A stretch of DNA of 63,084 nt, counting the filler, from Rozella allomycis CSF55 (lineage: Eukaryota): NCBI GenBank assembly GCA_000442015.1. It is 7 parts of 7 records of this genome, joined end to end, with 100 filler letters (N's around TTAATTAATTAA, not from the genome) between each part and the next. Parts side by side here need not be neighbours in the genome. Positions count along the whole stretch, not along the records: positions 1 to 25,316 come from KE561132.1; positions 25,417 to 48,417 come from KE561139.1; positions 48,518 to 54,255 come from KE561140.1; positions 54,356 to 58,109 come from KE561141.1; positions 58,210 to 59,719 come from KE561143.1; 2 more parts are not named here. The stretch is one strand, 5' to 3'. The notes under the pieces are model-generated. The model was given only the letters and a program-made list of their open reading frames with translations, had not been told where the DNA came from and ran no database searches. How positions within the stretch are numbered: position 1 is the first letter of the stretch; each line of letters begins with the position of its first letter. This document shows, piece after piece, positions 31-59,719 of this stretch. A program made the position numbers and the translations under genes.

Positions 31-1819
31 CTATTCAAACTTTATTCCTTGTGCAAGTGGTAAAGCCCCGGAATAATTAATTGTGCAAGTTTGTCTTCGC
101 ATGTATTGTTTCCATGAATCCGAACCAGATTCTCTACCTCCACCTGTCTCTTTTTCACCTCCAAAAGCGCCTCCTATTTCAGCGCCATTAGTTGGAATGT
201 TGCAGTTAACAATACCACAGTCAGAACCCGAAGGACTTATCTATAGAAGCAACTAAAATTACCCCGTCCATTTAAAAACGTTATTCACATTTTGGGTGAA
301 AATTGAACTGCTTAATCCTTGCCCAACTGAATTGTTGTACAAAATCGCTTCGTCAATAGATTTTATTTTGACAGTATGTAATATTGGAACAAAAACTTCA
401 TGTTGAAGAACTTTGGCATTTGAAGGCACCGACGTTATTGTTGGTCGGACATAATTTCCTCCCTCCAGGTTTAAAACTTCATTCCCAAATATAACTTTTC
501 CTCCCTTTCATTTTTACAAGATTTCTGTCTACCTGTGACTTTACATCTTCGATTGTTTTCTTGTATGCCTCTAATGCTTTATTTGAATGAAGAGGCCCAC
601 AAAGAACACCTTCCTCTAGAGGGTTTCCAATCTTAACTTGCTCATAGGCTTTCTTCAATTTAACAATGAATTCATCATAGATATTTTCATGAAGATACTA
701 TTTTCATAAATAATAAATGTTACTAATCTTCTTGTTGTTGTGCAACGTTGACCAGCAGTTCCTACGGCTGCAAACAAAATGGCCCGAACCGCCAAATCAA
801 TATTGGCGTCATCCATGACTATCATAAAATTTGAAATTCAATTTTACCTATTATTGCATTGTTACCTCCCAACTCCAAAAGTGGTCTACCGAACCTTTCT
901 TGAACCATAGTCCCAACTTTTCTTCCAATCTATTAAAGATTTATGAAAATCTATACTGCTGTGCTTCCTGTAAAACTAACAATGTCCACTCTTTTGTCTT
1001 TTGCGATACTTTCTCCGACATCAGCTCCACCACAAACCATAGAACAAAGACTTCCCGGTAAATTATTTTCTTCCAAAACCTTGGCCAGTATTTTGGTTAC
1101 AGCCACAGAACACAAATTAGTCGTTGGTGCCCCTTTCCTTATTAATGCACTTGAAGATTGTTTACCACAAGACAGGGTTTCCACAAATCAAAGAAATTGC
1201 AGAATTCCAGCCATAAACTGCTACTGGAAAATTAAAAGCTGAAATAACACCAAGAATTCCAACCGGATTCCATACTTCCATCATAAAGTGCCCAGGTCCT
1301 ATATTTACAACAATCTTTAAACATACTTTCAGAAGGTATAACTTGACCATTAAGCATTCTGCTTAAACCTACCGCGTAATCACATATATCAATATATTCT
1401 TGGACTTCCCCAATCCCTTCTGGTAAAATCTTGCCCATTTCAAGTGATACTAGAGCACCTAATTCATCTTTCTTTTCATTCAAAGCTTCTCTCATTTGTC
1501 TTACAATTTCCCCTCTTTTTGGTGCGGGTGTTTCTCTCCACATTACCTTACTCTTCATCATTTGATCGATTGTTTGGTTTAGATCATTCAAGGTTCCCTC
1601 TATGGTAGAATATGTTTAGATTACTGTTTTAACGCGACCAATGGGTTGGTTAGTGGCTGGATTGTATGATGTAATCACTTCACCGGATCCGCCCCATCGA
1701 CCGTTGTACACACCAGGATTAACGTCCATTGATAAATTCAGGGCCTTAAAAAGGGATGGGATATCAAATCGCTGAATCCTGTTCGTGTAACCTCGGCTAT
1801 GCGTCCAAAAGAATTTCAT
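31..1819 (-). CDS. ALDH7A1: Aldehyde dehydrogenase family 7 (antiquitin / alpha-aminoadipic semialdehyde dehydrogenase), 8 introns of 26-29 nt
   Basis: Motifs [90 protein letters not shown]; exons joined manually. Confidence 0.95.
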
Positions 1820-1951
1820 TCGTAAAATTCAAAACAACAAACATCAATTTTTGAAAATTGTAATATGGCAGTTTCTAATGAAGGTCACATGTATTAATAA
1901 TTATTGAATAATCAAAACAAATACAAATATGCAACACTATAAAAGAAAAAT

Positions 1952-4085
1952 TTATGAATCTTCTTCTTCCCCTTCATTTTCAGCTTCTTCTGCGGCCTCT
2001 TCTTTTTCTTCTTCTTTGGCTTTCTTCGCTTCCTCAAATGCAGTTTCCTCTTCAAGTGTCGGGTCTATTTGTTCATTAATCTCCAAAGGAAATACGAAAT
2101 TTATTTCTCCAGTTTCTTCATTCTTTTCTTGCTTGATGCCGTATTCTTGATTAACTTCAGGTAGAGAAGGTATTGACCAAGCAGACTCATACTTTAAACC
2201 GTCACCAACATAAATATTGGCAAATTTGTCTCTGTAACCAATATTTATAGCACCAGGCCAACGATTGCTTCTTGCATAAACAACAGAAAATTTCATAGGT
2301 AATCTGTGAGATGCTTGTCTAATTGTCCAGGCTGGCACTCCTGATTCAACGTCTAATTAAAAGCAATAAATATTGATACCTTCATCTTGCTCAATGGTAG
2401 TTAACAAAGCAGGCCCAGTCTCAGGTTCCATGGCTTCCTCCTCTGTTTGTTCCTGTCCTTCCTCTGCTTCCTCATTTTCCTCTTCGTTTCCATCTTCTTC
2501 TTTTGATTCTTTAATTAAAGTTTTAGGATTTATCCAAGACGTTCGTCCCTGTGGCAGTATATAGTTTTGGTGATGAACCCAAGAACTTGGCTGCAATAGC
2601 TCCTCTTGTGATCTCCCTTCATATTCGGCATTCACAACAACGACACTTGAAGAATTATCTAAAAAATTTAGATATTTTTGTTGAGTTACCTTCATTTTCT
2701 TCATTGTCTTCGCTTTGCTCAAAGGAATAATAACCGGCTGGACTAATAACTGTCCCAGCTGAAATTCGGGCTATTTGACATCTCAAATAATCAGCTTCAG
2801 TGCCCTTAAATGGAGGATATGATACGATCTAAATAAACCTAAAGTTTAATCTTCACCTTTTTACTCAGGTCACCAGAAAATTGCTTTTTAATCTTTCTAG
2901 CGGCTTGAATAAGAATTAGGATTGGCATCTGGTAATCTATTCCAAGGTCCAATAGCTAATTATCAAATGAATCAATTCTTACCATTATTGGAAACCCAAT
3001 AAACGTATTTGTTGACTCCTACGGATTCTTCTGCAGGGAGATTTATATTTTGGATGTTTAATTGGGGTTTTGCTTTTGCTAGATTATCAAAAAGAGCGAG
3101 CAATTCTGGATCCTCCACACCTTGTGACAATTCGGCCGAGGAATCTTGCCCGTTTTCTGCAGGCTGTTCTTCTGTTGTTTCAAGGGCAGGAGAATCAGGG
3201 CCAAGTTCAGATTCAATGACATAATAATTAGATTTCAAGCCAAATATCTTCCCAAATAGCCTTACACTTTTCAATTGCTTCTCTTGCGCCAATTGTTTCA
3301 AAGAGAGGATCAACTTAAATGTTTCTTCTTGGCCAAACGAGACCTATCTTATTATATATACTTTTCTACCCCCGCCCATTCAAATAATCTTGCAATCTCA
3401 AGCATGTCAGGCATTTCAGTCTCTATGCCGCTTTCACCATTTTCTAGAGAAGACTAAAAAATGAATCAAGACACTCATACCTGAAGCAACGTTATATTCT
3501 TTTTACAATTCTCTATGACATCACTGGATGGCACCACATCAAAGATTCCCAACGGCTTAGCATCCTTTTCAACGGCAGACTTTTTAGTCTTGACATCCCT
3601 GGACAACAGCTCAAATGTATCTTTTAATGTATTTTTGTAGTCATACCCACACTATTTTCCGGTCTCTGTTCCAAAATGGATGATATACATGCTGCCAAAT
3701 GGTCGTACAAATTTAGGCCTGTAGAATTGGAAGTTTTTTGTAAAAAAGCTTTAGCGTTCGCAAATTTAGGATCCACATTATGTGGTTGGCTAATTTGTTG
3801 TTGCGATGAAACCAATCCACCAATTTTGGTCTGAGAAATAATTGACGGTTCATTAGATATACTTTTTGTTGAACCCATTATGTTTTTAAGAGAACCGCTT
3901 TTTAATTTGTGAAGTGAGCCTTGTCTAGATGCAGTTTTATACGTTTCTGGTTGGTTTTCATTAGTTTCATTGGCGTCCACATTTTGGATTTCAGTTACAG
4001 GGGCAGCTACATCGGAAGCTGGTTCGTTGATTTGATTATTAACAACTTGTTCGTCTTGTGTCGCTACTGGTGTAGGATCTTCCAT
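1952..4085 (-). CDS. RSPH4A: Flagellar radial spoke head protein RSP4/6 family, 7 short introns
   Basis: [61 protein letters not shown]; acidic C-terminus. Confidence 0.9.
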
Positions 4086-57991: not shown

Positions 57992-58261
57992 AACTACATT
58001 TATTTAAATCTTTTTAAATATTCTAAATAGAAAAATTTTCATATAGTCAATTAATGCTGATTTTTTTCTCGATCTCAATTCTCAACCTAAACTTCAACGA
58101 TCTGGAATGNNNNNNNNNNNNNNNNNNNNNNNNNNNNNNNNNNNNNNNNNNNNTTAATTAATTAANNNNNNNNNNNNNNNNNNNNNNNNNNNNNNNNNNN
58201 NNNNNNNNNCAATATTCCCAATATTTTGTTTTTTTGCGGGGAAATTTCATCATTGATTTTA

Positions 58262-59719
58262 ATGACCTTAACTCATTCAAACAAGGTCCTCCAACTGCGA
58301 AATATTAATTCTAAAATACTGCAAACTCAATATGCAGTCCGCGGTGAAATCGCAATTAGAGCTGAACAGTTACGAAAGGTTCAATGATCACTTTCAATTT
58401 ACAGGAACTTGAATCAAATCCACAATCATTTCCCTTTAAGAAAATTATAAACTGTAATATTGGAAATCCTCAACAATTAAACCAAAAGCCAATAACTTTC
58501 TTTCGGCAAGTAATAATTGGATGGTGTATTTTTAGATTATGTCGCTCCTAGAGTATCCTGAACTTTTCAAAAATACTGAATACTTGGACAAGATTAAATA
58601 CATATATCCGAACGATGTCATTAACCGCGCACAACAGATACTGCGACAAAGCGGTCCCATTGGCGCCTACAGTCATTCGAAAGGTAAAAGAGAAATTTTT
58701 TCATGTTTTACAGGAATTCCATACGTACGGAATGCGGTAGCTAAGTATATTCATGGTAATTCATTTGACATTTCACGAAAGAACGTGATGGATATGAATC
58801 AAATCCAGAGCACATCTTTCTGACAAATGGAGCTTCACCCGCTGTTCAAATGATTTTAAGCGTCATTATACAGCATTTAGATGTCGGTGTCCTAATACCT
58901 ATCCCCCAATACCCATTATATTCCGCTTCTTTAGCTCTTTTAGGAGGGAAACCTGTCCCATATTATCTCGATGAAAAAACTAATTGGGGACTAGATGTAA
59001 AGAGCCAATACTACTGTCTTAAAAGATAAAAGAGATAAAGGACGCAATTAGAACGCATAAAGAGCAAGGTATTGATGTTAGAGCGATGTGCATAATCAAC
59101 CCTGGAAATCCAACAGGAAATTGCTTGACTGGGGATCAAATAGAGCAAGTAGTTTTTGAACTTTGAAATTTTAGGTCATAAATCTTTGCCATGAGGAAAG
59201 GATTGTACTTTTGGCTGATGAGGTTTACCAGACAAATGTGTATTCTGGCAAATCATTTATTTCTGCAAAGAAGGTTTTGAGATCGTAATCAATTATATTG
59301 AATATTTTTGAATGGGCTCGAAATACAAGAATTTTGAGTTGTTTTCATTTCACAGTATTTCTAAAGGGGTTTTGGGAGAGTGTGGTAGGCGAGGTGGTTA
59401 TGTAGAATGCACTGGTAAGATTCTTAAATAAATGAATATTTCAAGGCATAAGCGAAGATATAATCGATCAGATTTATAAAATTGCTTCCATCTCATTATG
59501 CCCAAGTGTTTCGGGTCAGATAATGGTTGGCTTAATGGTAGACCCACCAAGGAAAGGAGAGGAATCATACAGCCTTTACAAGAAGGAAGTCACTGATATT
59601 CATAGTAACAATTGCGTCTGTCATTTATAGATTCACTAGAAAGAAGATGTAAAATTTTGTGCGACGCGTTTAATCAAATGAAAAATATGTCCTGCCAAAA
59701 TGCCGACGTAATCAGAGTT
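58262..59719 (+). CDS. ALT1: Alanine aminotransferase (3' end in gap); at least 9 short introns, one of them GT-TG
   Basis: [62 protein letters not shown]. Confidence 0.95.
59285..59310 (+). other. Non-canonical 26-nt GT-TG intron in alanine aminotransferase
   Basis: gtaatcaattatattgaatatttttg; removal gives [21 protein letters not shown]; the first AG (45 nt) gives a frameshift. Confidence 0.72.

What the first reader, a model, noticed from the sequence alone, without database searches (positions are those of the whole stretch)
31..59719. Uniform 26-32 nt introns with a minimum-length ruler: nearer AGs skipped, AAG/GAG acceptors used, no visible branch point or polypyrimidine tract
Seen: nearly all introns are 26-32 nt, mostly 26-29. 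Upstream AGs are bypassed: 236-262 skips TAG for AAG; 1598-1624 skips TAG for GAG; 51276-51303 skips three TAGs; the last Cym1 intron skips CTAG; the intron near 19839 skips a 24-nt TAG. 3' ends are often A-rich (aaaag, aatag), donors vary (GTAA, GTAT, GTAG, GTAC, GTT, GTG), and no CTAAC/TACTAAC consensus is evident. Established: tiny introns occur in microsporidia, ciliates and nucleomorphs. Inference: this is length-based intron definition in an intron-rich genome, and it provides the context for the GT-TG cases.
Basis: partly seen in the sequence, partly recalled or inferred. Interest (0 to 1): 0.7.

Follow-up and report, generated by a model that had tools for sequence, protein, structure and literature searches.

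The report
Rozella mini-introns with hidden branch ruler
The fungus-like parasite Rozella allomycis has introns almost all 26-32 bases long, whose end seems set by counting about 23 bases from the start to an adenine and then taking the next AG, which would put the splicing branch point unusually close to the intron's end.

Summary
The window is Rozella allomycis DNA. All 28 introns placed by protein homology are 26-31 nt, and a gene model with a flat length prior on 797 kb puts 558 of 597 at 26-33 nt, with a cliff below 26. The acceptor is the first AG ending at position 26 or later (564 of 597); AAG makes up 30% and GAG 3%. There is no CTAAC motif and no general pyrimidine tract. It most likely is the branch adenosine, so the ruler runs donor-to-branch and the floor is 23 + NAG. 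This leaves a 3-nt tail as the commonest case. Against this: 11% of introns lack such an A, the A's context is barely U2-like, and no RNA data were obtained. U2, U1, U6, SF1 and U2AF are present. Similar architecture is published for myxozoans, Dicyema and Stentor; this scan noted it earlier on other DNA of this genome. New variant of a known kind.

The parts
31..1700 (-). ALDH7A1 gene (5' end approximate) with 8 introns of 26-29 nt: 1598-1624, 1299-1326, 1138-1165, 930-956, 819-847, 698-723, 505-532, 236-262
   Evidence: profile alignment of 83 non-Rozella homologues, flat length prior; 6 of 8 positions shared with 50-87 nt introns in other eukaryote ALDH7 loci
236..262 (-). 27-nt intron; TAG at 22 skipped, AAG used; A+23 at window 240
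1598..1624 (-). 27-nt intron; TAG at 25 skipped, GAG used; +23 is T, +24 is A (window 1601)
19839..19866 (+). 28-nt intron; the skipped TAG ending at 24 contains A+23 (window 19861)
   Evidence: frame continuity; posterior 0.77 flat, 1.0 learned; no homology test
28830..32116 (+). Cym1/presequence protease gene (start approximate) with 11 introns of 26-31 nt
   Evidence: profile alignment of 60 homologues; P0241 named presequence protease
31806..31831 (+). last Cym1 intron, 26 nt; CTAG at 16 skipped; T+21, A+23 (window 31828), then AAG
51276..51303 (-). 28-nt intron; TAG at 13, 17, 21 skipped; A+23 at window 51281 (near-copy at 51070-51097 beside a single N)
   Evidence: frame continuity; posterior 0.85 flat; no homology test
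58261..59719 (+). alanine aminotransferase gene (runs off the contig) with 9 introns of 26-31 nt, one with a GTTC donor (58379-58404)
   Evidence: profile alignment of 86 homologues
59285..59310 (+). 26-nt GT..TG intron; no AG ends within 39 nt of the donor; no A at +21 to +25
   Evidence: best parse by homology with non-AG ends penalised; public models truncate (P0121) or drop residues (P0391) here
236..59630 (.). whole set: 116 predicted introns in the window, 115 of them 26-32 nt, 82 with A at +23
   Evidence: posterior >= 0.5, learned length

Best explanation
These are major-spliceosome (U2-type) introns shrunk to a steric minimum and defined across the intron. Shown from sequence: donor GTA, a hard floor at 26 nt, a ceiling near 32, an A at +23 fixed to the donor, and use of the first AG ending at >=26. 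Inferred: U1 binds GTA(A); with almost no branch-site sequence to read, U2 is set down at the nearest register the complex allows, which bulges position +23 (or +24/+25 if +23 is not A). That A is the branch nucleophile (a 23-nt lariat loop), and the first AG ending at least 3 nt beyond it is the acceptor, whatever base precedes it. This gives 26 = 23 + NAG, AAG/GAG acceptors, skipping of every nearer AG, and no need for CTAAC or a pyrimidine tract. In about 11% of introns with no suitable A, a U at +21 and a pyrimidine at +24 seem to hold the same register. If no AG falls in range, an NG end appears to be used.
For: A+23 in 250/301, 213/302, 184/292, 128/189 and 44/59 introns of 26, 27, 28, 29, 30 nt; background 0.33; same in the flat-prior set. 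It stays at +23 as length grows; A at -4 is at background in 28- and 29-mers (0.36, 0.35), so it is not an acceptor motif. Absent from GTA[AT]..AG pseudo-introns (0.32-0.37). Model-free, all 6329 GTAA sites: A at +23 0.388 against about 0.33; AG ends at 26 in 12.5% with A23 and 5.3% without; with A24 but not A23 the excess starts at 27. In the intron set, non-A23/A24 introns are 26 nt in only 2 of 172. Holds in all phases, donor types and six contig sets and in held-out loci (26 of 39). AAG use depends on the A (Fisher p=1.2e-5). No-A class: T21 in 101/131 against 420/838 (p=5e-9); G at +23 19 times, at +24 once. U2 keeps GUAGUA, U1 ACUUACCUG, U6 ACAGAGA; SF1, U2AF65, U2AF35, Slu7, Prp18 found. 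A donor-anchored weak A is proposed as branch site in myxobolids and Dicyema (PMC13644364).
Against: No RNA or lariat evidence. 131 of 1183 introns have no A between +23 and -4, yet keep the floor at 26; the rule 'first A >=23, then AG' predicts 1047 of 1183, fewer than the plain length rule (1172). Context of A23 is only faintly U2-like: U at -2 0.50 vs 0.45 (p=0.011), purine at -1 0.58 vs 0.52 (p=0.004); -3, -5 and +1 pyrimidine not significant. In the 28 homology-placed introns A23 is only 14 of 28 (A23 or A24: 19), below the 71% of the ab initio set. In the yeast P complex the acceptor A(-2) pairs with the branch A and 20 bases loop out between (10.1101/212811); a single base between the two is geometrically demanding, and I found only two motif-inferred precedents (Yarrowia, PMC13309789).
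Confidence: 0.68

Rival explanations
1. The ruler measures donor to acceptor directly (for example U1 snRNP to U2AF35 on the AG). A23 is a protein contact or stacking preference, and branching occurs upstream at a sequence-free, variable position.
For: The plain length rule fits best (1172 of 1183). The no-A class still starts at 26 nt (51 of 131). It avoids the 3-nt tail. U2AF35 is well conserved.
Against: No other position from +5 to +22 carries information (relative entropy <=0.05 bits against 0.43 at +23). The floor moves to 27 when the A sits at +24. The weak U(-2)/R(-1) context matches a branch site.
Confidence: 0.2
2. Two routes: A23 is the branch in most introns, but 26-mers or the U-rich class use an ordinary upstream branch A with a short U tract bound by U2AF65, so no 3-nt tail or non-A branch exists.
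For: The no-A class is U-rich at +21 to +24 (0.77, 0.60, 0.76, 0.81), like a short tract; RRM2 of U2AF65 keeps its aromatic residues.
Against: A23 is most frequent in 26-mers (83%). No upstream A is enriched in the no-A class (+17 to +20 p>0.1; +21 and +22 depleted). G is tolerated at +23 but not +24.
Confidence: 0.1
3. The pattern is an artefact of gene prediction, or the introns are copies of a mobile element.
For: 1183 introns are predicted, not sequenced from RNA; the learned-length model is circular for length; the window was in the training set.
Against: The cliff at 26 and A23 appear without any model and with a flat prior and no splice-site matrix. The same aligner gives 45-102 nt introns in other taxa. 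Only 2 12-mers are shared by more than 2 introns; 6 of 8 ALDH7 positions are shared with other eukaryotes.
Confidence: 0.02

Closest known systems
Ultra-short introns of myxobolid myxozoans and Dicyema japonicum (PMC13644364; parts 1-2 of 3 read; supplementary logos not visible)
   Same: Median 22-27 nt, donor reduced to GTa, bare AG, weak A residues that move away from the AG as length grows (proposed branch site), no tract, canonical U2 branch-pairing region, U2AF1/2 kept, parasitic host.
   Different: There 2-3 weak A's; here one dominant position (+23) with fallback to +24/+25, a near-absolute floor at 26, a quantified first-AG rule and a modal 3-nt tail. Their tail length could not be read. 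Rozella is an independent, fungal-side lineage.
Stentor coeruleus 15-16 nt introns (PMC9505925; part 1 of 6 and passages)
   Same: GTA donor, no branch consensus, branch A inferred from a fixed position, canonical snRNAs.
   Different: A at 10 or 11 with a constant 5-nt tail, so it tracks the 3' end; few introns per gene. Rozella: loop 23 nt, tail 3-9 nt, about 2.3 introns per coding kb.
Fused branch point-acceptor introns of Yarrowia lipolytica, Trichomonas, Giardia (PMC2483917, PMC2911113, PMC13309789; passages)
   Same: No pyrimidine tract, branch A close to the AG; two Yarrowia introns have overlapping motifs, which equals a 3-nt tail.
   Different: Strong ACTAAC anchored to the 3' end in long, sparse introns; in Rozella there is no motif and the anchor is the 5' end.
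Paramecium (median 24-25 nt) and Bigelowiella nucleomorph (18-21 nt) introns (PMC12862383, PMC6009652; passages)
   Same: Intron-rich, very short, weak signals.
   Different: Paramecium has a broader range (15-100 nt in P. bursaria) and frequent alternative acceptors; nucleomorph introns are reported to have no discernible branch A.
R. allomycis introns in print (PMC6349667 passages; PMC8476143 passages and one supplement row)
   Same: Two S23 introns noted as about 30 nt and lacking 5' and branch motifs; 2.5-2.8 introns per kb.
   Different: No length distribution, floor, acceptor rule or A+23 in what I read; annotated totals give a mean of 46 nt (950,194/20,623), longer than found here.

Membership tests
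U2-type spliceosomal intron | GT..AG ends | tested here: met
   27 of 28 homology-placed introns; about 96% by posterior when GC donors and six other acceptors are allowed
U2-type spliceosomal intron | major snRNAs with canonical pairing boxes | tested here: met
   U2 GUAGUA, U1 ACUUACCUG (69 bits, just under the 69.5 cut-off), U6 ACAGAGA; U4 and U5 not searched
U2-type spliceosomal intron | branch-site consensus CURAY/UACUAAC | tested here: not met
   CTAAC 9, TACTAAC 0, CTRAY 56 of 1183; only a positional A
U2-type spliceosomal intron | polypyrimidine tract | tested here: not met
   Y 0.50 at -12..-4 against 0.55 mid-intron; a short U run only in 131 of 1183
U2-type spliceosomal intron | SF1/BBP, U2AF65, U2AF35 encoded | tested here: met
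U2-type spliceosomal intron | removal from mRNA through a lariat at the branch A | not testable with these tools
   no RNA holder listed; nothing laid from run X1
Myxobolid/Dicyema-type ultra-short intron | length under about 30 nt, GTa donor, bare AG | tested here: met
   1084 of 1183 are 26-29 nt; GTA 1160 of 1183; AAG+GAG 388 of 1183
Myxobolid/Dicyema-type ultra-short intron | A signal that recedes from the AG as length grows | tested here: met
   A at +23 in lengths 26-30, that is at -4 to -8
Fused BP-AG intron (Yarrowia/Trichomonas/Giardia) | strong ACTAAC at a fixed distance from the AG | tested here: not met
   no motif; tail 3-9 nt; anchored to the donor
U12-type intron | RTATCCTT donor and TCCTTAA branch site | tested here: not met
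   positions +5 to +8 of the mini-introns carry <=0.05 bits; separate U12-like candidates lie elsewhere in the genome
Introner / transposon-derived introns | shared sequence and lineage-specific positions | tested here: not met
   2 12-mers shared by more than 2 introns; 6 of 8 ALDH7 positions shared with other taxa

The most novel reading that the evidence does not exclude
Rozella's spliceosome picks the branch nucleotide almost purely by distance (+23 from the donor), branches at a non-A base in about a tenth of introns, and routinely ligates with only one nucleotide between the branch A and the acceptor AG (A-N-A-G; 331 of 1052 A-bearing introns). This would be the tightest branch-to-acceptor geometry used as a genome-wide norm, needing a docking mode unlike the looped-out one in yeast structures, with NG ends as a fallback, in a genome that also seems to keep a minor spliceosome.
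Probability: 0.45. Interest if true: 0.75.

Novelty: new variant of a known kind. Interest (0 to 1): 0.56.

Why it matters
The smallest intron a spliceosome can handle, and how it finds a branch point without a motif, are open questions. Here thousands of natural introns give two sharp numbers: about 23 nt from donor to branch and 3 nt from branch to end. These can be set against spliceosome structures and tested by lariat mapping. The lineage is sister to microsporidia, so it shows intron shrinkage without intron loss on that branch. In practice a three-part rule (GTA, A+23, first AG from 26) would correct public gene models, which go wrong at such sites (P0121, P0391).

Tried and rejected
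RNA: no RNA holder listed for window 1-10000; laying run X1 on an EF1-family locus gave no cover; neither counts for or against. Relatives: of 80 metagenome ALDH7 loci, 23 showed gaps or split matches and 11 of these were spliced-aligned; 10 had introns, all 45-102 nt, none Rozella-like, so spread among rozellids is unknown. Loss of SF1, U2AF, Slu7 or Prp18 as cause: all found. Changed U2/U1/U6 boxes: canonical. Secondary structure as ruler: folding energy -0.74 against -0.78 shuffled in 300 of 1183 introns. A at -4 as acceptor motif: background in 28-29-mers. Stop-codon selection as cause of A23: same in all three phases. Comparing U2AF65 RRM1 across fungi: the search returned only the Rozella protein. 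Non-AG acceptors under a flat length prior: not resolved (posterior sums 0.1-5). U12-like intron candidates: frame test on 6 of 8 was inconclusive. Literature: ten searches found no paper describing this rule in Rozella; subscription papers, including genome papers, are not in the library, and the supplementary logos of PMC13644364 could not be seen.
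Full report
Identity. Exons of the window match named Rozella allomycis proteins at 100%. The window joins several contigs with N spacers. No RNA data were obtained, so every intron below is inferred from DNA.

Checking the observation, three independent ways. (1) Without a model: among 3533 GTAA sites in 460 kb outside the window, the chance that an AG closes a stretch of length L is 0.047 at 25, 0.089 at 26, 0.077 at 27, 0.072 at 28, 0.059 at 29, baseline 0.055; control words GCAA, ATAA, CTAA show no such step. 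(2) By homology: a spliced profile aligner with the same cost for every intron length placed 8 introns in ALDH7, 9 in ALT and 11 in Cym1; all 28 are 26-31 nt. The same aligner gave 45-102 nt introns in 10 of 11 ALDH7 loci of other eukaryotes, and 6 of Rozella's 8 positions are shared with them, so these are old introns that shrank. (3) Ab initio: a self-trained gene model with only GT/AG and a flat 14-120 prior already gave posterior counts of 3 at 25 nt and 89, 85, 83, 62, 27, 18, 11 at 26-32. With a donor matrix on 797,373 bases, window included, 558 of 597 introns at p>=0.8 are 26-33 nt, 9 shorter, 30 longer. With length learned, 1183 at p>=0.9 are 26-33 and 14 lie outside; that set is circular for length and is used for sequence features. 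In held-out loci 39 of 41 are 26-33.

Acceptor choice. Acceptors are TAG 684, AAG 351, CAG 111, GAG 37. Internal AGs at frame-shifting offsets occur at 0.026 per position at 10-21, 0.029 at 22-25 and 0.006 from 26 on in the flat set (2 of 361, p=0.012); 0.028, 0.036 and 0.011 in the learned set (p=0.004). AGs ending at 22-25 were passed over 153 times; AGs ending at 26 or later only 11 times in 1183. 'First AG from 26' predicts 564 of 597 in the flat set, against 553 for 25, 422 for 27 and 397 for 10. Donors are GTA in 1160 of 1183, +5 G in only 20%. There is no CTAAC consensus and no general tract.

Aligned on the donor, position +23 is A in 83, 71, 63, 68 and 75% of 26- to 30-mers, against 33% background; the model has no positional term there. 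It does not follow the 3' end. Pseudo-introns lack it. Among all 6329 GTAA sites A at +23 is 0.388 against about 0.328 at positions 10-21; if about 16% of these sites are donors, that implies about 70%, my own arithmetic. AG closes at 26 in 12.5% of GTAA sites with A23 and 5.3% without, and when only +24 is A the excess begins at 27. When +23 is not A, +24 is enriched (0.52-0.67 in 27- to 30-mers). An A lies between +23 and -4 in 1052 of 1183; tails after the first such A are 3 nt (331), 4 (280), 5 (222), 6 (140), 7 (56), 8 (18), 9 (5). AAG is used 328 times and skipped once with such an A, 23 and 5 without (p=1.2e-5). The other 131 introns have T at +21 (101 of 131) and a pyrimidine at +24 (128 of 131) but allow G at +23 (19), which looks like a branch register kept without the A, though a short U tract is also possible.

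Mechanism. The simplest reading is that A23 is the branch adenosine, placed by the shortest spacing that U1 and U2 particles allow, and that the first AG ending 3 or more bases later is docked. The floor is then 23 + 3. This step is inference. For it: the shift with A24, the weak U(-2) and purine(-1) context (p=0.011, 0.004), canonical U2, U1 and U6 boxes and presence of SF1, U2AF65, U2AF35, Slu7 and Prp18. Against it: the plain length rule predicts more acceptors (1172) than the A-then-AG rule (1047) because the no-A class keeps the floor; A23 is in only 14 of the 28 homology-placed introns; and in the yeast P complex acceptor A(-2) pairs with the branch A across a 20-base loop (10.1101/212811, passages), so one intervening base is demanding. 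Two Yarrowia introns with overlapping motifs are the only precedent I found (PMC13309789, passages). U2AF65 RRM1 has lost aromatic residues relative to the human protein (RLYVG to RVIFT, FAFLEF to AAIVEF) while RRM2 keeps them; this fits weak tract reading but lacks a fungal control.

Non-AG ends. ALT 59285-59310 is best parsed as a 26-nt GT..TG intron; one public model stops there and another drops the conserved residues. With six non-AG ends allowed at equal prior and learned length, 20 calls at p>=0.7 end in TG (14), CG (4) or GG (2), none in AC, AT or AA; 17 of 20 have no AG ending at 26-33. Under a flat prior these are not resolved. They support a bounded window but need RNA.

Comparison with what is known. 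Myxobolids and Dicyema have the same outline, with weak A residues that recede from the AG in longer introns, proposed as branch site (PMC13644364, parts 1-2 of 3; logos not visible). Stentor has a fixed inferred branch A with a 5-nt tail (PMC9505925, part 1 and passages). Yarrowia, Trichomonas and Giardia fix a strong motif to the 3' end (PMC2483917, PMC2911113, passages). Paramecium, nucleomorph and ciliate papers were seen as passages. For Rozella I found only a remark on two 30-nt introns lacking motifs (PMC6349667) and density figures (PMC8476143). Ten searches found no description of the rule; subscription papers were not searchable. So it works like the myxozoan/Dicyema type and is very likely U2-type, though it fails the branch-consensus and tract tests. 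Earlier notes of this scan on other pieces of this genome report the same A23 and the NG ends; I consulted them, and they are not independent support.

Verdict. Real, well supported as a sequence rule, partly reinterpreted. New variant of a known kind; interest 0.56. The 3-nt tail as the commonest geometry is the surprising part and awaits branch mapping.

Noticed in passing
L088:1501-1607; L202:64-196; L203, L204: Probable minor spliceosome: a U6atac-like RNA (26.8 bits, cut-off 33, AAGGAGAGA box) and a U12-like RNA (36.4 bits, cut-off 53), both below cut-off; the pattern RTATCCTT..TTCCTTRA has 8 matches against 0 for the reversed control. In L203 and L204 the branch motif ends 44-46 nt from the donor, so such introns would escape the 26-32 rule; their ends were not resolved.
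   Followed up: partly
L065 / P0398: U2AF65 RRM1 lacks the aromatic RNP residues of the human protein; RRM2 and the UHM are kept. The word-based search found no relative of this exon other than itself.
   Followed up: partly
797 kb set: Introns of 27 and 30 nt carry an in-frame stop in 91% and 93%, against 51-73% for other lengths, and 27-mers are not depleted.
   Followed up: no
window 59285-59310 (+) and 42269-42296 (-): GT..TG introns: the first is homology-supported, the second only ab initio (p=0.73). Five GC-AG candidates, all 26-29 nt, lie in other contigs.
   Followed up: partly
window 51070-51097, 13600-14500, 37540-37580, 52100-52620: Local duplications, several beside a single N, that look like assembly artefacts and duplicate or break gene parts.
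   Followed up: no
window 25104-25201 (-): The only long intron call in the window (98 nt) lies in a very AT-rich stretch at a contig end and is probably false; only 5 of 1175 calls stay outside 26-33 nt once GC donors and non-AG ends are allowed.
   Followed up: partly
P0121, P0391, P0393: Public gene models of the ALT gene are split or shortened at the non-AG intron; the annotated mean intron length of 46 nt suggests many such errors.
   Followed up: partly
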